A DNA stretch of 64,000 bases from Hydrolagus affinis (Eukaryota), in contig JAAILG010001009.1 in NCBI GenBank assembly GCA_012026655.1, positions 1 to 64,000 on the forward strand, in the 5' to 3' direction. The number at the start of each line of letters is the position of its first letter. The stretch's first letter is position 1. Both the position numbers and the translations under genes were made by a program. Positions 6,701 through 53,745 of the stretch are shown in pieces. The notes beneath the pieces were generated by a model. The model had not been told where the DNA came from and did no database searches. It saw nothing but the letters and a program-made list of their open reading frames with translations.

Positions 6701-9700
6701 CACGGTGTTCAAATTTATTTTTCAAATTTCCCCACATTTTCTATTGGCCCTGGACATGACATGTGCATTCGACTGCCAGAATGATTGAAGACGATCTGAA
6801 TGGACATTGGTCTTCTTTCATCCAGCTACACTGATGTTCTTAAGGCTACGGTCATGAAAGAGGATTCGCATAAAATTTGGGAAAAGTCTTAAATTCAGTT
6901 CTCATTTGGGTGCAAAAGCGGCTCTTGCATTGAGACAGAATGTAAGAATGTTCAAACATTTTGTACAGTCTTGCTTTTTAAGGCAAGGGTCTAAAAGACT
7001 AAGGCCATAAGAATTGTCTTTAATGTGCAATGATACTTTCCAGTCTGTATTTTGATGTGAAGTGCTGTGAAAGCTGACCTGCAGATTATAAATCACCGGG
7101 ACCCTTAACTAAGTCCTCCAATCATCGTTATGTATTCATACAACATACAGTAAATCAACTGTGAATCTTGAGGTTGCTGCATCAGAGATCTCTGGGGAAC
7201 ACTTCATTTTAAGTGTTCTATATCAACTACTTGAACAGTGTTTGAAAATGCAGTATTCTAATTGAGCAAAGAACTCCAGATACCAACACAGTACAAAGGA
7301 CAATCAGCTCAGCTCAATATGCTTCCATAATATATGACAGGCATCAACCAATCCCCCTCTTCAGTATGGGGATGGCAATCTCTAAAAGAACTGATCCCAA
7401 ATTAATTCTCAATTCAAGAATTTTTGCTCAATTCTGAGCAATTTTGAATGTTAATCACAATGGTCTTATTGTTTGGAATTTCAGATCCATCGTTAAAATA
7501 AGATGTGATTAAACACGGTTTAATATTCAATGATGTAGGCAGCACTGACTCAATGGCCAGTGTCTTCTTGGAATTTCAGCAGAAACAATGAGTACAAACC
7601 ATCGGCATTGGTAGAAAATATAATCAAGGAATAAATAGAAATGATTGCTTCCAAACCCACTATGAAGGATTATATTCAATCCACGACTGTTTGTGGGACA
7701 CTGCGCTGCTGCATTTTGCCCACAAAATATACCGTAAATTTGCCTGGAAGTATATTCTGTGAAGTGCTATGAGACTTCTCGAAGACTTGATATCAAATGA
7801 AAGGATTATTACTACTATATGAATGCAAGTTCTTGTTGTAAACACCTGATATTCAAAGAATTATATTAAATGTGATGGCACAGAAACCTGCTATTTTCCC
7901 CAATTAGTTCATATGAGCCTCCACCCGTACTAATCATATCTCCCAAACTCCGTTCCCTTCTCCCTAAAAAAAAAGCAATGTGTTAAGCTTAAACTCAGAA
8001 CCACAAATTTGTTTCCCTTCTGCAGTAATCCTTTCTGCAAAACTGCATTACCCAAACTGCATGAAAATGATCAGTCGTTTATTATTGCTGTGAGATAGAT
8101 CATTGCTAGAAATTGAACCAATATAATAATTAGAAAGTAACATTTCAGCAAATCTTTCAGGGCAAATCTATAAGTTGGTTTTAAACGTTCAGTAACACTG
8201 TGCAATACGTTTAATTGATTAGCAATAAGCACAGGTTGTGAGACATTTACAAGTAGGCTGCAATCATATTTGGATCCATAAGAATATCACCATTCATTTT
8301 CAGCTTCCAATGTATTATTGTGACTACTTTATCATGGTGTTATAGATTCAGCTTGAAACAAATAACACATTGCATAATGAGTGGAAACATTGATTGGAAA
8401 ACTGTAATCCGTTTGATGGATTCTCAAGATATATTTAAACCCTGAGCGAGAATTCAAAATAAAACATGTTCTGAAGCCTGGATTAGAGAGCACAATGGAA
8501 TTAAATCACTCTGTTCGGTTATTACTTGTACTGAATGAAAGACGGACATCCTTGTTGATACCTCTAAATTTGCCAGTTTTCTCTCCATTTTTCACTGTGC
8601 ATGGGTATCAGGAAACATGTGTAGCCAGGAATCTACGGATGGTGACCAGAGTCAGCAACTTTTTGTATGCAACTTCTTGTTGTGTTGGTGGATATAAATA
8701 CCATAAAAAGAAGCTGACGAGAGCTATTTTTAAGCTATAGTTTGAGGTGCAGCTTTTTTTTTAACTCCCTTGTGGGTTTTCTATGGTAAACTGACAGCTG
8801 AGACTAGTACAGTGCGATGTTCACAGAGGGGATTAAAGGTGCTTGGGATGTCATTACTGCAGGTTTTCAGAGGAATAATCTGCAGTTGATTATGGGGAAA
8901 ATCATACATCCAGTATATATCATAACCATGCTGGACACTTAAAGTGAAGTAGTGTCATTTCGCAATGATGCAAAGACACAGGTAAGTAATTACATCTGCA
9001 AATGGATTCCTCATTACAGGAGGCTGTCCTCTTTTTCAAAATAATAACCTTACTGACAATTTATTCATGATTTGGGATGAAGCGATAAACCCTAGATAGC
9101 AGTACCGAATGTAATAGCGCTGCATCTCTAAGTGATTCACAACCAATGTTTATTACAAATTAATAACATGTTACATATGTTATGCAAAATTTATAATCTG
9201 GGTATAGCTCTGTATTTACACCTCTGCTGAAATATTACTAATTAATTATTATAGTGAAACGTCATTTTATTAAACATGTTTTACTTATTCATACCAATGT
9301 GATTCTGATCTTATTAAACAACTATACATTTTTTATAGCTGGAGCATTAGAGCTTTGTTAAACATTAAGCACTACATTTTAGCAGACGTTTGAAATGAAG
9401 TGATACCAATCTGTTTTAAATAAAATAGCTTATGCATCACTTTGTCATTTCTTTCCAGCACATGTATACCCCAGTCTCAGCTCTTATCACAAGGAGGAGG
9501 TTGTGATGAGTGTTTGCCAGTAACTGTGTAATTTAATGTTTTAATGGGTACTAAATAATATCACTTTACAATATTTGTCTAGGAAAAGAATCAGATGGTT
9601 TAGTATTTTACATTAAATCCTGTGAAAGGCTTTGAGACACCCTCCTGACATGAAAGGCCCTATATCAAATACAAGTGTTATTGTTATCAGGCTTCTGGAG

Positions 9701-14599: not shown

Positions 14600-15534
14600 C
14601 TGCTCTTTTTAATTTATATTAATGATCTGGACTTGGGTATAGGGAGCACTATTTCCAAGTTTGCAGATGACACAAAGTTAGGAAAAATAGTAAATAGTAA
14701 GGAGGATAGTAGCCATCTTCAAGAACATATAGACAGAATGGTAAATTTAATGTGGAGAAATGTGAGGTGATGCATTTTGAGAAGAGAAATGAGGGGAAGC
14801 AATATAGGCTAGCTAGTACAATTTTAAGGGGTGTGAAGGAACAGAGAGACCTGGGGGTTTGTGTAAGTGATTTTTTGAAGGTGGCAGGACAGTAGATAAG
14901 GCTGTTAAAAAAGCATATGGGATACTAGGCTTTATAAATAGGGACATAGAGTATAAAAGTTAGGAAGTTCTGACTAACCTCTATAAAACTTTGGTTAGGC
15001 CTCGGCTAGAGTACTGTGTTCAATTCTGGTCACCACACTTTAGGAAGGATGTTAAGGCATTGTTAAGTGCAGAGGAGATTTACCAGGAATGAGGGACTTC
15101 AGTTTTGAGAAAGGCTAGAGAGGCTAGATTTATTCTCACTGGAGCAGAGAAGTTTATGAGGAGACCTAATAAAGGTTTTCAAGATCATGAGGGGATTCAA
15201 TAGGATAAACAGGGAAAAACTGTTTCCACTGGTGGGTGTATCAGTGACTCATGTTCACAGATTTAAAATAGTTTCAAAAAGAAGCAGAGGGGAGGTGAGG
15301 AGAAATTTTTTCACTCAGTGAGTTGTTCAAATCTGGAATGCATTGCCTGAAAAGGTGATGGAGGCCGATTCGATAACAACTTTTAAAAGAGAGGTAGACA
15401 TTTATTTGAGGAGAATGGGTTTGTGCGGTTATGGGGAGAGAGCTGGGGAGTGGATTTGAATTGTTTTTATCAAAGAGCCGGCATAGACTCGATGGACCGG
15501 CTCTTTTGTGCTGTAAGATTCTATGATTCTATGA
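14600..15534 (+). mobile_element. 5'-truncated CR1 LINE (RT C-terminal part and 3' UTR), decayed
   Basis: Translates FLIYINDLDLGIGSTISKFADDTKLG, a CR1 reverse-transcriptase motif, with later frameshifts. Ends in the CR1 terminal repeat (ATTCTATG)2. Confidence 0.92.
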
Positions 15535-41707: not shown

Positions 41708-41917
41708 CCCCATCAGCTGTGGTCACGTGGACTGTCTCACTCCTCACACTGTGGGCACTGTTGAAAACCTCAATGGAAAGTTGATACTCTGTGTTTGGGC
41801 GCAAATTGCCAAGCAGAGTGTGGTTTACATCAGCTGGGAAGAATGTGGAGTTGCGAAAGGTGGTGGAGTTAATGTGTAGGATATAGCACTCCACGTCGCC
41901 CTGCAAGTCTTCCAAAG
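41708..41917 (-). CDS. USH2A: Usherin coding exon (human exon 45 equivalent), 210 nt
   Basis: (T)LEDLQGDVECYILHINSTT...LGNLRPNTEYQLSIEVFNSAHSVRSETVHVTTADG. Acceptor ccaaag|CT, donor GGG G|gttagt, phase 1 to 1. Confidence 0.95.
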
Positions 41918-42141
41918 CTTTGGTTTTTTTTAAAAAAGAGAGGACAACAATTGGTTAAACTATTGAGATTGGCTGGTGTCTGTCAGTTATTAACATTTAT
42001 TACAACTAGACTATAACTGAGCTATGTGTTTCGCCCACAAAATACACAGTCAATTCAGTTTACAGTTTACTCTGTGAAGAGCTTTAAGACGTCTCAACAA
42101 CATTATAAGGCGCTATATCAAATGCAAGCATTATTAGTATA

Positions 42142-42575
42142 CAGTAAAAGCCCATTTATCCATGACCCGATCAACCGTAACTTCCGTATAACCAGCACCT
42201 CAAAAAAAAAGTCCCCATTTGATTAACCAGATCTTATCCGGCACAATGTATCAGTATCAGTATAATGCCTGAAGATGACACTGCCGTTTTTTTCCCTCAC
42301 AGAGTACAGCACAATTACCTCTGAATGCTGCACTTCCTGTGCTGTGTTTATAGACTGTAATCTATATTTATTACTTTATTGGTAAGCATCCATACAATAT
42401 TCTGTTATTATTTAGTCTATTATTAATATGGTATGTTTGAAAAAATTTAATTAAAATTAAAAAAGTTAAAAATTAAAAAATAAAATTTGTTTTGTGTTTT
42501 CGACCAAATATCCAGCTCGCGCTTTAATCAGCATTGGCTAGGTCCCAAGGGTGCCGGATAAACGGGCTTTTACTG
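42142..42575. mobile_element. Tigger-like MITE family B, intact, inserted at the tail of a SINE (42025-42137, +)
   Basis: TA|CAGTAAAAGCCCATTTATCC ... GGATAAACGGGCTTTTACTG|TA, giving TIRs and a TA target-site duplication. Confidence 0.88.
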
Positions 42576-43509
42576 TATTTAGTTCACCAAGCCACGGTAT
42601 GGAATCCATCCAGAGCTTTAATTTTAAACTTTTCAGAACTACACTTACCTATAAATGCACAGTCACTTCTAGTCAATTGCATTAGGCACTTGAAAAGATT
42701 TCTTCTAACGTGAAAGGTGCTATAAAATAATCTGTACAATTGATATGTCTCCTTTCACGTCAGGAAGCGACCTCAGAATGCTTCACTGGATGCACTCTAA
42801 AATGTAATGACTGTGTATTCTACATGCAAACATGGTAGTCAATGTGTCCACAGCAATGATACACAAACAACCAAGAAGTGAATGACTAATTTTATTTAAA
42901 GGATTGCTGGCCGGGACACTGAGAGAAAATTGCTTTTTCTTTAAAATAGTGTAATGGGATTTTTAACACTACTCTGAACTGGCAGACGTAAATCTCAATT
43001 GTTGTTATATGGATATATATATATATATGTATATATATTATATATATATATGAATCATAATCATGGGATTTTTTCAAGCCACAATAAGTATTGGTACAAA
43101 CAATTAATACATTGGGCACTTGAGAGAAAAGGAACATATTCCAAATTTAGTGGAGGGAACAAAATAGAATTTAATGAGACCACAGGGCAAAGCGCCAAAC
43201 AGGGTTCCTTACAGTCATCAACAAGGTTTCTGAAAATCTTCATTGACCACAAAATGCTCATGAAAATCTCTGCATATACAACATAGAATCATAGAATCTG
43301 CTTCTTTTAGAAACTATTTTAAACCTGTGACCTCAAGTCACTGACACACCCACCAGTGGAAACAGTTTTTCCCTGTTTTCCCATGTGTAGTTTTCCCACA
43401 GAGCTCCACAAGTTGTGTAAGAGATGTATGAAACAGACTATTGCTGGTAGTTTTCACCTGTAATATTTCATCACAGTGGTAGGTCATCTTACAAATACAG
43501 TCACTACAC

Positions 43510-43675
43510 TTTACAGCAAAGATTCATGGTACAGTTCACATGATCAACTGTTATCAAATCTAATGCAGGGGTGTCTTCTTACCACTTTTACAAGCTTGAT
43601 GATGAGATAATTACATAAATCCATGAATAATCCTTACATTTATGTTCAATTTCTACCAATGCCACATTAGACTAA
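43510..43675. repeat. Exon-less tandem duplicate of the exon-44 flanks
   Basis: 43510-43573 matches 43821-43878 and 43571-43675 matches 44094-44198. Confidence 0.88.
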
Positions 43676-43890
43676 CAATAATCCTTGCATTTCATATAGC
43701 ACCTTATCACGTCTTTGAGACGTCTCAAAGAGCTTCGCAGAATATACTATAAAGTGAACTGACTGTATGTTTTGTGCACTAAAATGTGGAGCACTTGAGT
43801 GTGAAGAAAAAACCCTAAAGTTTACAGCAAAGATTCACCATACCAGTTTACAATGTTATCAAAAGTAATGCAGGGGTGAATGGTACGTAC

Positions 43891-44054
43891 TTGGTCTGCT
43901 CCATTTGGCTTCTATCGTTGTGTGGTTTACAGCCTCTGCTGTGAGGTTGCTTCCTCTGACAGGGACACCTGCCAGTGTGGTGGCTGTAACTTCTTCCCCT
44001 GCTGTGTAACCTGCATCATTAGACACTACCAGCTTGTATTTATACGTTGTATAC
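43891..44054 (-). CDS. USH2A: Usherin coding exon (human exon 44 equivalent), 164 nt
   Basis: YTTYKYKLVVSNDAGYTAGEEVTATTLAGVPVRGSNLTAEAVNHTTIEAKWSRP. Acceptor catttag|GT, donor CCAA|gtacgt, phase 2 to 1. Confidence 0.96.
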
Positions 44055-45861
44055 CTAAATGAATGAACAACAGACACGTTGATTGACAGTTTAGTGCCTT
44101 CTTAACACTTTTACAGGAGCGCTGATGAGATAATTGCATAAATCCATGAATAATCCTTACATTTATGTTCAGGTTCCACCTCCACCACATTAGACTAAGG
44201 AGTCATACATTAGCTGGTGCACGAATTTCAAACAAAAATGAAAAATTGTTGAAAGCATATAACATTTCCATTAAACGTGCACATTACTGACGTGTAAATT
44301 TGAGGCTGGCATTCTGAGAAATGTGAAATACCATAATAAGGTAGAAATAATATGTCTTCAAAGGAATCTCATTTAATAGGTGTACATAATTGGTGTTAAA
44401 TTAATTCTCCCACACTGTTGCATTGAGTATCTTATTCCAACAGACTCTTACTAGGGTCAGTGCCCAATGACCAATATTAATATCCACCTCCATAGCCCAC
44501 TGTAGAAATATTCTTGAATGCTTTTTTACCTCTTTATATTTGTCACCTGATTGGTATCATCAAGCAAATTGCCCGACATCAAATTGTTTACAGAACTGTA
44601 GAAATTTACAGCACAGAAGAAGTACCATGTCTGTGCTGGCTCTTTTAACAAACCTATCAATGCAATTTTCACCTTTTTCCCATATCCCCGCTTTCCTCCT
44701 TTTTAGATATCTATCGAGTTCCCTTTTGAAAGCTCACATAGAATCTGTTTCAACCTGAATTACAATTTATAGCCCCAAGTAGATGTGCAACTGTCTTGAA
44801 AATACAAGCTCACTTCACTATGTATGCGATGATTAGCTTCCTCACTCTCCTGCATGTTAATAATCCGCCACCTTGTGAAGTGAGACTGTATCGCAGATTG
44901 TCACACAAGTAATGGAAAAGCCAATTGACAACATGCAAGGTAGACTACAGTTCTAAGAAGTGTTGGAATTGGACAGACAGGGAGACATTTGGTGGTATGA
45001 ACTCAATTAGATCTCAACAACTGTTAGAAGTGGAAGAGAAGCGGTCTGGCCAGCGCACAGCGATTGATGACATTCCAGCTCATCTTCTATTCAACGCCAT
45101 TAACAACATTCTACTCCAAAGCATGCAGCAACAGGAATAGTATAGTAAAAAAGGTAGTTTTTTTTGTTACAGGCTTAGTTTCCTCAAGGATATGTGGACT
45201 GGTTGTGCAGCAGTTTATAATTTTTGAAGAATCTTTCGGTTGCTAACTACGCACTTTATTCAAGAAAATATGCTCCATTAACTTGATTTAAAACTATAAA
45301 AGGAAACAGAGGATCATTTTAGACACCCCAGCCTCCTCATAAAATAAAATTAATTTTAAACAAGTAATATTCAGCGAAGGTTGTCTGATAACGCAAGCAT
45401 TCGGCCAGTGTCTTGTTAGCAGATCCATAAAACATGAGTTTGTTGCATTTAAATTGTATTTTAATGTGATGGTGTGGAACTTGGTTGGGTGGGGGAGTGG
45501 GGGTGGGGGGGGGGAGGGCGGGGGTGGTGGTGGTGGGTGGGTGTGCAGCCTTGACGTATAGATTTAATGTTTGTTAGTTTTGAAATACACCTGGATCACA
45601 AAGAAATGCTGTCTTCTTAAACAATTGCCTCCAAATGCACATAGTGCAGCTGATGGAATGGAAAGCCATTACAAGATGAGACAGCTTCCAAAATCACAGT
45701 AAACACAACTGTCAGTCAGTTTTATTTTTATTCAAATACATTTTATACACAAAAGCACTTATTTCAAATATTATAAATACTAGGAAACGGCAAACATCAC
45801 ATAATAAATTATTTGCAAATGAAATGGTAATTTGTTTGAAGCTGATGTAGTTTAATCTAAC

Positions 45862-45984
45862 CTGTTAAGACCTTTATCTTCATAGTACATTTGTGTCCCT
45901 GAGTAAATATTCAACCAAAGATTTAAATCTTCAGGGGGATTTGTTGTGAGTGGTTGTTGGGATTTGTGCCTTAGCAACTCATAT
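45862..45984 (-). CDS. USH2A: Usherin coding exon (human exon 43 equivalent), 123 nt; absent from the ORF track
   Basis: Manual translation YELLRHKSQQPLTTNPPEDLNLWLNIYSGTQMYYEDKGLN(R), homologous to human YELLRRKIQQPLASNPPEDLN. Acceptor tttttcag|AT, donor AG|gttag, phase 2 to 2. Confidence 0.96.
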
Positions 45985-48859
45985 CTGAAAAAAACACAGG
46001 TTGCACAGTATGATTATCAAACACAATGTCTGGTGACAAAATCGCTGATAATTACCATTCCTAAAATCATTGTTTAACAAATTTTCCTTTCATTTATTTA
46101 AACACTGTATACAATTTAAATAAAAATACATTTCCCCCATATTCTGCACAATATTTGACTGCTTTCACAATACATGTGCATTTTTAAATTTATTATTATT
46201 TAATCACTATTTGATCAGATATTCACAGAAATTTACAGCACAGAAAGTCATTCAGCCGATGCTGATACTCTCTTGTCCATTTGAGCTAATGAATCTAGTC
46301 CCAATTCCCTGTTTTCTACCCATACCTTGTTATATTGTTTCCCCTCCAATATTCATTTATTCAATTTCCTTTAAAATACTGCTACACTCCTTCAGCTTCA
46401 CTAGCAACTTATGACAAAGCATTCTGTATTCTCACAATTCTCTACATCAAAGCATTTCTTCTAACTTCTCCCTAAATCTTCAGTCACAATCCTCAATTTA
46501 TCTTTGGTATAAACTACCAATGTGAATAATTTTTTCTCTAAACATTTCAGTCACAATTAATCTATCCTGTTTCTGTGAAAACTACTCCCAAATGTTTAGC
46601 CACTTAACTAAAATTCCTAAACTCTACTAACTAACATCCTAATGAACTTCTGCTGTACAAAGATTACTATAATGATTACGCTTACACTTGGTTAACACAA
46701 TCCACAAATTAAACCCCAATGAAATTGTTTTTCCTCCATTAAAACTTCAGATTCTAACATGTATATGGTTGGATATTTGGGAGTATGAAGGTATGTGATG
46801 AGCACTGTCCACCAGCCATTGAATGCAGCTTGTATTGGCGGCAGATATATATTTCTTCACCTCAAAATCCACAAGGTCATAAACCATGCATCTGAATGCT
46901 CCATGAATGTGGCAGTAGAAGATTTGAAGTTGTTTAGTTTATATTTATGTTGCCATGTTTCTACAAAGGTATACTCCATACTCAACAATAACAAAATTAC
47001 ATTTGTAAAGCACCTTTCAGGTGGGGAGCACATCCCAAGGTGTTGAACAGTCGTGGATCAGGAGCTGAATGTTGGGGAGCAGGTTTGGGGTGATGGAGGG
47101 CAGAAAGGTAGGAATGTGGTGAAGAGTGAACTCACTCTGGTACAAAGTTAACACTCACATCAGCAGCATGATAACATACTCTGCTTTTGTTCTCACATAC
47201 ATTTGCAAACCCGATGGCAGTAAGACCACAGTGAAGAATTACTCGCTCAAGATTCATTCACTCTCTTTCCACCCTAATACTTCCCCTCAGACACCTTCAC
47301 AACAAGCAGGACACAGTATTGTTTGCTCTGTAATACTTTTGTGCTGCAATTTTGTCTTTGGTGGTTTGAACGCATAGCTTCAAACAATCTCTGAGCTGTC
47401 AGAGCACATCTGCCTTCTTACCTTTAAGTTAATTAAAGAATGTCCTCCGCTCAAGCGTAAAATCTGCCGGATAATTTTGTTTATTAAGAGACCCAAGTGT
47501 AGGCCAAAAGCCATTGTGCAACACACCAACAAGAGGATTTGTAAAGAGGAGCAGAGAGGACAAGATGAATCGCGATGTAATAGTTATGTATGGGATTTTT
47601 TAAAAAGCGTCATTTTAGCTGGATAGATAGAGGAGGACACGGCTTGTTTCATACCTGCTTCATTTACACCCCAGCACAGCAACTCCATAAATTCCCTCCT
47701 CAAGGTTATGTGAGGAGACTGCCTCCAATACAACTGACCACTGATTTATTCTGCATGTTTCACAATCAGATCTAATTTGTGATATTTTCAAACAGGAATC
47801 GATGTGCTAATTGCAATTTCCGGTTGTGAACACTGAAGGTCATTTAATTTACAATATCGGCTTGCTTTGCTCTTCAGAATTACACACATGGACTTAACTT
47901 GTATGAAAATTAAAATTTAAGATCATGCGGAAATTTGGAACATTATTCTTAAATTGGGGTTTTAATTTGAAAACTGAATTTCAGCAGGTCTTTCAAAACA
48001 AAGCATAACCTAGTCATGTGATAAATTAATCTGGATTATAGCAAGCCACATCACAATGTGGTTACCTTGTTGATTAATTCTACATTTACAACCGGAAGTT
48101 GCAATTAGTTGCAGAATTGTTATGCCAGAAGCTGGCCCAAACATTCGCGCCATTAAATTGTAAATATATATATAAGTATGCTATATTATAAATATGCTTT
48201 ATTAACTAACTAACTGGAGGATCATTAATATTATTTCCCGATGCATCAAAATGGATTAGATGGACATTTCTACATGGCAAGTATAGAATTGTCAGATTAT
48301 GAAAAATAGCATTAAACATGTGTCTTAGGTCTGTGGGCTGTTATAGTATCCAGCGCGAGCCCTGTTGTGATTCATAACATTGGTAGCTTTTTGAAATATT
48401 ATAATATTGAGTGTTAATGAATCTACCTTAACCTGATGCTATTAGTGCCCTTCTGGATATCATTTAGAATGGAATCTGCAGAGCAACACAGAATTTCAAA
48501 GAACTGGGAAAACAGTCGTTACTATTTTCAATAAAATATATATTTTATAAAGAACAACTAGAGTACTTTGCGTGTCTATGCAACATGCTCTTTGTTTCAT
48601 ATAAGTAGGCAACAAAATGATTAACACTGAATATTTAACCTTTAGTTTACTTCACTATATTGAGAATGATTCGGCAATGCTTGATAAATTTACAGACCTT
48701 GGCAGGCTACTACATCTTGCTGGAAAAAACACAATGACCATGTTGATGTGAATGTATTAGGGCAAAAATAGGTAAACTCATGCAACCAAGGTTGGGACAT
48801 TTATTAATGAATCACCCCTGACCATCCCCATGTCCTACATTACGTCCCCTGATTGACAG

Positions 48860-52702: not shown

Positions 52703-53745
52703 AGCTCTCATACAAAAGCTTCAATGCAATATTAACCACAATATTTTAAATTAAGAAGAAAAGTTGTCACAACATTGGAAAGTTACCCTACATTGAGGTT
52801 TGTTAGACTAAGCTTCCTCTCCATCAATTCTCATGGCTGAGATACAGAGAGTACAGAGGCTTTAAGATGTTCAAATTATATATCCACAAATCTGAACAAA
52901 ATGGTTGACGCTTTATTGTTAGTTGTCACTCGCAGAAACATCCTAGAGGTGATTCAAAAATCTATAATTAAGGAATAAGGCAAACTCCATTTCCAGAAAG
53001 TGATAGAATATTCTCTTTCATTTTTGAAATGTTGTTTTAAGCTATACTTCGCATAATGCAGAATTTATTGACAATCAAGGCTTGTTTCAATGGGTATTCA
53101 GATACAGGGTGCAAAGAGGAATTAGACAGTTAGTTCCTCCAGTTTGGAAAACCCCTCTCCCTTAAGCAAGAATATTTCTGTAGCCATATCATCTGGATGT
53201 TTGCAAAATTAGAAATAAAAGGCATCTCACGAAGCGGACTGAGAAAACAAACAGCTACCTTTTTGGATCATCTTTACAAGGTGCTGAAGGGCAGGCTGTG
53301 CCTGTGGAATTGTACTCCAGCAAGAGTCAATGTCTTTGGGAAATTAGTGAAATAGGCAAAGTAAAGAAATTGATGCTTAAACAATCTGAAGAGACAGAAA
53401 AGTTATCACTAACAAATCAAATTGTGCTAGTGAGGTGAAATATGAAATGAAAAAAGAAACTATTTATTCATTTAAATTTTGCAAAACAAAAGTAAGCTTA
53501 CAATAACATAGTTGCACTTTTTTCTCCAAGTATATATTTTTATTGCTAAGAAAGTCCCCAAACTTAGTTAATGCACTAATTTATTCTTAATTTAACTTGA
53601 TGAACAAAATTGGGGTTCTCGTGTACAAATTAAGCTCTCATACAAAAGCTCCAGTGCAATATTAGCCACAATATTTTAAATTAAGAAGAAAAGTTGTCTC
53701 ACCATTGGAAAGCTCCCCTACATTGAGGTTTGTTAGACCAAGCTT
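52703..53745. repeat. 113-bp direct duplication (52703-52815 and 53633-53745)
   Basis: Ungapped alignment with about 8 mismatches, offset 930 bp. Confidence 0.92.

What the first reader, a model, noticed from the sequence alone, without database searches (positions are those of the whole stretch)
43510..44198. Ghost of an exon duplication: tandem copy of the exon-44 region with the exon missing at a GTG microhomology
Seen: 43510-43573 (TTTACAGCAAAGATTCA...TGTTATCAAA..TAATGCAGGGGTG) matches the intron flank 43821-43878 on one side of exon 44. It runs directly into 43571-43675 (GTG.CTTCTTA.CACTTTTACA...ATAAATCCATGAATAATCCTTACATTTATGTTCA...CCACATTAGACTAA), which matches the other flank, 44094-44198. 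The 218 bp missing from the copy (43879-44096) contain the whole 164-nt exon, both splice sites and the adjacent intron ends, and both breakpoints share GTG. A SINE tail (43674-43776) sits between the copies. Inference: exon 44 is phase 2 to 1, so a tandem exon duplication would frameshift usherin; a microhomology-mediated deletion of the extra exon would have rescued the gene. A single template-switch event that skipped the exon is the alternative.
Basis: partly seen in the sequence, partly recalled or inferred. Interest (0 to 1): 0.7.

Follow-up and report, generated by a model that had tools for sequence, protein, structure and literature searches.

The report
Old exon-less tandem duplication in usherin
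An intron of a fish's usherin gene holds an old partial copy of the neighbouring exon's flanks without the exon; it likely arose exon-less in one copying slip, an ordinary kind of mutation scar, rather than as the rescue of a broken gene.

Summary
The feature is real. Two arms (43504-43573, 76%; 43571-43675, 86%) copy the flanks of the 164-nt usherin exon 44 (43891-44054, minus strand). They join at a GTG, and 218 bp are missing. The sequence has no other match in the genome. Contigs from other organisms carry the same exon-less copy, including organism D (7-12% intron divergence), so it is not an assembly artefact. A probable RNA contig of D splices exon 43 to 44 to 45 and skips the copy. One refinement: the copy probably continues past the SINE (43778-43814). 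That makes it a head-to-tail tandem duplication of about 430 bp with the SINE inserted inside the left copy (ACTAA on both sides), not between the copies. A hand count dates the duplication at roughly 1.6 times the age of the split from D. The 'rescue' story is not shown: no exon-bearing copy was seen, and 47 of 141 placements of a 218-nt deletion remove the exon by chance. Rough rate arguments favour a copy born exon-less by template switching and kept because it was harmless. A 49-nt core is oddly unchanged in both copies (p about 0.007). Ordinary class; low interest.

The parts
43484..43516 (+). SINE-like internal fragment that forms the left flank; its last 7-13 nt overlap the start of the duplicated unit
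   Evidence: Aligns to SINE copies in the window, e.g. 43491-43516 and 43484-43528; inverted pair I5
43504..43573 (+). Arm A' of the left copy (copy of the start of intron 44, next to the exon-44 donor)
   Evidence: 76% to 43815-43878; present in organisms A and D
43571..43573 (+). GTG junction where 218 nt are missing
   Evidence: Microhomology of 3 nt; same junction letters in organism D; removed by a further 17-nt deletion in run X1 of organism A
43571..43675 (+). Arm C' of the left copy (copy of intron 43 upstream of the acceptor)
   Evidence: 86% to 44094-44198, 15 differences
43600..43648 (+). 49-nt core with 1 difference from the original (44123-44171); unexplained
   Evidence: Scan-corrected p about 0.007; D's copy is 56 of 58 identical to the window's original
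43676..43777 (-). 5'-truncated SINE with its ATT tail at the left, probably inserted into the left copy; ACTAA on both sides (43671-43675, 43778-43782) is a likely target-site duplication
   Evidence: Alignment of 22 copies; 150 matches of >=90 nt in 864 kb, mean 81%; tail at the same place in D
43778..43814 (+). Likely decayed right end of the left copy (homologous to about 44194-44243)
   Evidence: Global alignment p 0.012-0.038; D's letters match best at 44196-44215; the 9 nt that A and B carry after 43788 fall in the alignment gap
43815..44243 (+). Original, exon-bearing unit (right copy); its ends are approximate
43879..44096 (.). 218 nt absent from the left copy: the exon, 12 nt of intron 44 and 42 nt of intron 43
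43891..44054 (-). Usherin (USH2A) exon 44, 164 nt, phase 2 to 1
   Evidence: tblastn map; probable RNA contig X17 joins it to the exons ending at 45862 and starting at 41917

Best explanation
This is an old, partial copy of the exon-44 flanks, likely a head-to-tail tandem duplication of about 430 bp, whose left copy was likely born without the exon when the replication fork switched template twice in one event. One jump went back to recopy the unit, and one went across the exon at the shared GTG. Carrying no exon or splice sites, the copy would have been harmless and could drift to fixation, whereas copies that kept the phase 2-to-1 exon would have been purged. A SINE likely inserted later into the left copy. 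All of this predates the split from organism D. Shown: the two arms, the GTG junction, uniqueness in the genome, presence in relatives. Inferred: the tandem geometry, the order of events, the single-event origin and neutrality.
For: Geometry and microhomology. A microhomology of 3 nt or more occurs in only 1.8% of 35,806 distinct possible deletions (5.7% of 47,895 placements) inside the unit, which fits a microhomology-guided jump. The exon-less form was found wherever the copy was seen: contigs of organisms A and D, and probably B (one contig at 43560-43595 table 3, not among the listed pieces). No exon remnant lies in either intron (13 and 75 of 100 shuffles scored as well). Probable RNA contig X17 splices 43-44-45 and skips the copy. 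Single-event complex CNVs are about 5% in human and up to 12% in fly, and FoSTeS, MMBIR and SRS cannot be told apart at breakpoints (PMC4056370 passages). Rough rate argument (inference, recalled rates): a harmful doubled exon lingers for about 10^2-10^3 allele copies, and a suitable deletion arises at about 10^-9 per generation. Rescue is then about 10^-7 to 10^-6 per duplication, against perhaps 10^-3 for a copy born exon-less.
Against: Sequence alone cannot separate one event from two; the end product is the same. A hand count leaves time between the duplication and the D split (6-7 shared differences in 105 nt before it, 4-7 per lineage after), enough for a later deletion. Small deletions do occur here: 9 nt in the window's lineage and 17 nt in run X1. 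Three nt of microhomology fits MMEJ as well as template switching. The continuation past the SINE is only modestly significant. The best local match of 43786-43814 within 42000-46000 is 43113 (score 29); the post-C position ties at 25 among the top six. The rate estimates are order-of-magnitude and rest partly on recalled human values.
Confidence: 0.55

Rival explanations
1. Two steps without rescue: a full tandem duplication was tolerated (extra exon skipped, mutually exclusive, or silenced by a splice-site change) and fixed. A later neutral microhomology-mediated deletion then removed the dead exon.
For: There is time before the D split (hand count). Deletions occur in this region. 47 of 141 placements of a 218-nt deletion remove the exon and its sites. 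Tandem exon duplications can be mutually exclusive (PMC6071210 and PMC9013439 passages).
Against: It needs two rare events. The copies would be about 265 nt apart with intact splice sites, so double inclusion is the default expectation. No pairing partner for the core was found (53 of 200 shuffles scored as well). No intermediate was seen.
Confidence: 0.28
2. One reading: a frameshifting duplication of exon 44 was rescued by a microhomology-mediated deletion of the extra exon.
For: A doubled exon would stop at codon 9 of the second copy. The deletion removes the exon, both splice sites and a branch-point-like motif, and little else (the motif was not tested).
Against: Simpler rescues (collapse between 430-bp direct repeats, a splice-site point change) should be more frequent (established knowledge, not tested). 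The rate argument disfavours rescue by several orders. The tight fit to the exon has a one-in-three chance given the size. No intermediate in any run laid.
Confidence: 0.1
3. The copy is a reverse-transcribed, spliced antisense RNA inserted next to its source.
For: On the plus strand 43876-44094 begins with GT and ends with AG, and a SINE tail abuts the copy.
Against: Splicing would leave three G at the junction and the copy has four; D shows no gap there. There is no pyrimidine tract before the AG. The SINE is on the opposite strand and lies inside the copy. The head-to-tail position is untypical of a retrocopy.
Confidence: 0.04
4. An assembly artefact or a dispersed repeat.
For: The assembly is fragmented (245,464 contigs), and the genome search skips very common words.
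Against: The copies differ by 14-24%. Independent contigs carry the copy with their own changes. Only the two local places match in three genome searches.
Confidence: 0.02

Closest known systems
Complex CNVs by FoSTeS / MMBIR / serial replication slippage (PMC4056370 passages; PMC4303224 abstract: non-contiguous duplications in DMD)
   Same: A local, co-oriented, non-contiguous duplication with short microhomology at the internal junction.
   Different: Here it is about 430 bp, old and shared between species rather than a patient allele. The outer junction has decayed too far to read a microhomology.
Tandem exon duplication and mutually exclusive exons (PMC9013439, PMC6071210, PMC9741552 passages)
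   Same: A tandem copy that includes the intron flanks of an exon.
   Different: The second exon and its splice sites are absent, so no alternative exon exists. Searches for exon homology like those in PMC9013439 would miss it.
Microhomology-mediated end joining (MMEJ) deletion
   Same: A clean junction with 3 nt shared and no filler bases.
   Different: It cannot be told from a template switch at this junction. Longer microhomologies (5-7 nt, 7 options) were available for removing the exon and were not used.
Short-range template switching in great apes (PMC7954356 passages)
   Same: Local template switches that leave fixed scars in genomes.
   Different: That model inserts a reverse-strand fragment of median 12 nt; here the arms are direct and 60-105 nt.

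Membership tests
Head-to-tail tandem duplication | Two co-oriented homologous units | tested here: met
Head-to-tail tandem duplication | The end of copy 1 abuts the start of copy 2 (later insertions aside) | tested here: inconclusive
   p 0.012-0.038 from window letters; relatives' letters add support; a rival local match scores higher
Microhomology-mediated junction (MMEJ or template switch) | At least 2 nt shared at both breakpoints, no filler | tested here: met
   3 nt; chance 1.8-5.7%; same in D
FoSTeS / MMBIR / SRS single event | All junctions arise in one event | not testable with these tools
   Needs an intermediate lineage or a de novo event; none seen
FoSTeS / MMBIR / SRS single event | Microhomology at every junction | tested here: inconclusive
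   Inner junction yes; outer junction near 43810-43820 too decayed
Tandem exon duplication with alternative exon | A second homologous exon with splice sites | tested here: not met
   No remnant; probable RNA contig skips the copy
Dispersed repeat | Many copies across the genome | tested here: not met
   2 places only; these searches skip very common words
Processed (spliced) retrocopy | Exact loss of a GT-AG intron | tested here: not met
   Off by one G on the plus strand; by inspection, none of the four equivalent cuts gives GT-AG on either strand
Known structured RNA | Rfam match above the gathering score | tested here: not met
   2 hits, E 1.1 and 3.4, both far below threshold

The most novel reading that the evidence does not exclude
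The copy is not inert. Its 49-nt core (43600-43648 / 44123-44171) is a regulatory element that the duplication doubled while the exon was cut away, and both copies have been kept under selection across species. At its boldest, the locus is a fossil of a frameshifting exon duplication rescued by deletion that left usherin with a doubled intronic control element.
Probability: 0.1. Interest if true: 0.5.

Novelty: new member of a known kind. Interest (0 to 1): 0.2.

Why it matters
If it is a neutral scar, it matters little. It is a tidy, dated example of survivorship: near a frame-asymmetric exon only exon-less duplicates persist, and searches for duplicated exons would miss them. It can also serve as a shared phylogenetic marker. 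It would matter more if an exon-bearing intermediate turned up, since that would record the purge of an exon duplication directly, or if the 49-nt core proved to be a conserved, doubled regulatory element of a deafness-blindness gene.

Tried and rejected
RNA: one search listed no RNA holder on record. Raw-read run X18 laid 0 reads (27% of the run read), which is no test. X12 is low depth, and only the exon appeared among its listed unique pieces. X8 was laid on the original only and is identical there. Of 19 runs listed, 8 were laid. Background, first pass: it missed the gap in the target itself, so all 18 non-array events were realigned; one tandem array was dropped before counting. One search (80-aa query) gave only generic FN3 proteins; Pfam found nothing for exon 44. 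Rfam was negative. No complementary partner was found for the core. The left flank of the copy is not homologous to the left flank of the original (1892 of 2000 shuffles scored as well), as expected for a head-to-tail duplication. Taken singly, the window's post-SINE segment (349 of 2000 shuffles) and D's non-SINE motif (851 of 2000) were not significant against the post-C sequence. The inverted 9-11-mer around the SINE is probably chance, since D differs there. Earlier scan findings: none. Paper searches listed no paper on this locus; (tandem exon duplication + microhomology + deletion + frameshift + intron + evolution) gave 0. The library lacks most subscription papers, and no supplements were read.

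Full report
1. Observation. Both arms are real: 43504-43573 matches 43815-43878 (76% over 71 columns) and 43571-43675 matches 44094-44198 (86%, 15 differences in 105). They meet at GTG; the microhomology is exactly 3 nt and 218 nt are missing. The missing part holds the exon 43891-44054 on the minus strand, 12 nt of the downstream intron and 42 nt of the upstream intron.

2. The gene. A longer exon finds 13 homologs at E<=1e-20, 5 of them named usherin or USH2A; the closest is an unnamed catshark protein at 69%. tblastn with three of these places the exon between neighbours of 123 and 210 nt. Passages of two papers number human intron 43 from c.8682 and intron 44 from c.8845 (PMC7960924, PMC9035000), so exon 44 is 164 nt, phase 2 to 1. 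A doubled exon would stop at codon 9 of the second copy. A 5,036-nt contig of run X17 (organism D, RNA by guess) joins this exon directly to the exons ending at 45862 and starting at 41917, so the copy is not included in that transcript.

3. Not dispersed, not an artefact. Three searches of the 1.11-Gb genome find only the two local places (they skip very common words). Of 19 runs listed, 8 were laid. In organism A (X1) one contig spans 43490-43643 and carries its own 17-nt deletion across the junction. In organism D, an X13 contig covers 43491-43598 (only 25 letters right of the junction). A 208-nt X14 contig matches 44123-44180 at 56 of 58; its displayed flanks show the same GTG junction on one side and the SINE tail on the other, and its length fits the window's copy. 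Only 30 of its 111 left letters were displayed. Organism B probably has the copy too (table 3). D differs from the window by 7-12% in intron pieces and 6 of 164 in the exon.

4. Anatomy refined. The SINE is a tRNA-headed, ATT-tailed family (head label recalled from the look of the alignment). This copy is on the minus strand and 5'-truncated, with ACTAA on both sides. The 37 nt right of it align to the 50 nt that follow arm C in the original (58 of 5000 random 50-mers and 192 of 5000 shuffles scored as well). The alignment opens a gap where organisms A and B carry 9 more letters that resemble the original. D's letters there match best at 44196-44215, exactly where arm C ends. Against this: each piece alone is not significant, and a place at 43113 gives a higher local score. 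The likely structure is therefore: left flank, copy 1 (A', deletion, C', SINE, decayed end), copy 2 (A, exon, C, end), a head-to-tail duplication of about 429 nt. The left flank of copy 1 is a SINE-like fragment that runs into the unit's start.

5. Age. A hand count from the letters printed splits the 15 differences in arm C: 6 are shared by both species' copies (before the split), 4 are on the window's copy, 4 on the window's original, and 1 is unresolved; D's copy has 7 more. That dates the duplication at roughly 1.6 times the age of the split, with wide error. One search showed only 40 of 50 listed differences, so D's original is incompletely known. The deletion and the SINE also predate the split.

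6. How surprising. Inside the unit, a microhomology of 3 nt or more occurs in 1.8% of 35,806 distinct deletions (5.7% of placements), so the GTG is probably meaningful. Removal of the exon is not surprising: 47 of 141 placements of a 218-nt deletion, and 7,315 of 47,895 deletions of 50 nt or more, take out the exon with its splice sites. In 864 kb of this genome there are 19 local unique duplications, one a tandem array that was dropped. Of the other 18, three show a second unique arm across a gap of more than 50 nt: the target, L014 (gap 86% dispersed repeat) and L008 (inside a long repeat-rich open frame). Local duplicates are thus routine, about one per 48 kb, while a clean gap of unique sequence was seen in 1 of 18.

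7. Mechanism. One event with two template switches and two events in sequence give the same product; passages of PMC4056370 say that FoSTeS, MMBIR and SRS cannot be told apart at breakpoints and put complex single-event CNVs at 5% (human) to 12% (fly). The abstract of PMC4303224 describes non-contiguous duplications in DMD by replication-based mechanisms. My ranking rests on an order-of-magnitude argument with recalled rates. A frameshifting allele survives for some 10^2-10^3 copies, and a deletion of the right size and place arises at about 10^-9 per generation, so rescue by this route is about 10^-7 to 10^-6 per duplication. Collapse between the repeats or a splice-site change would usually come first. 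A copy born exon-less needs no harmful stage. A tolerated duplication with a later neutral deletion is intermediate; NMD and mutual exclusivity are known ways to tolerate one (PMC6071210 passages). Hence 0.55 one step, 0.28 two steps without rescue, 0.10 rescue. An antisense spliced retrocopy fails by one G.

8. Unexplained. The 49 nt at 43600-43648 differ from the original at 1 site while the flanks differ at 14 of 56 (scan-corrected p about 0.007), and D's copy is 56 of 58 identical to the window's original. This was noticed after the fact. Gene conversion shortly before the split, selection on a doubled element, or chance could each explain it. No Rfam family or pairing partner was found.

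9. Literature and verdict. Seven searches listed nothing on this locus. I saw passages of PMC9035000, PMC7960924, PMC9013439, PMC9741552, PMC7954356, PMC4056370 and PMC6071210, and the abstract and outline of PMC4303224; no supplements. The feature is a real, old, well-preserved member of a known class of local rearrangement. The rescue story is attractive but unproven and not the likeliest. Interest 0.2.

Noticed in passing
window 43600-43648 and 44123-44171: A 49-nt core nearly unchanged in both copies and in organism D's copy (p about 0.007, post hoc); conversion, selection or chance.
   Followed up: partly
window 43788 and 43566-43582: The window lacks 9 nt that organisms A and B carry after 43788; run X1 of organism A has a further 17-nt deletion across the GTG junction.
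   Followed up: partly
window 43279-43387: A 109-nt high-copy element is absent from organism D's contig (jump 43278 to 43388) and matches 15207-15288 at 91%; likely a younger insertion.
   Followed up: partly
window 52703-52815 and 53633-53745: A second, younger local duplicate in the same gene (113 nt, 93%), with no second arm found.
   Followed up: partly
window 43105-43134 and 43780-43809: A 30-nt match at 70%; it competes with the post-C sequence as the source of the bases right of the SINE.
   Followed up: partly
window 43876-44094: On the plus strand the skipped stretch is one base off a GT-AG intron; on the minus strand the right breakpoint touches a branch-point-like motif about 40 nt before the acceptor.
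   Followed up: partly
L014:7100-7495 and 9390-9572: A gapped local duplicate whose 227-nt gap is mostly dispersed repeat.
   Followed up: partly
L008:7503-10000: An open frame of at least 832 codons with internal non-contiguous duplications and no Pfam match below E 0.08; a 36-nt tandem array lies at 550-1313 of the same locus.
   Followed up: partly
window 44232-44336: Organism D has 82 other letters in place of 103 just right of the duplicated unit, which blurs the unit's right end.
   Followed up: no
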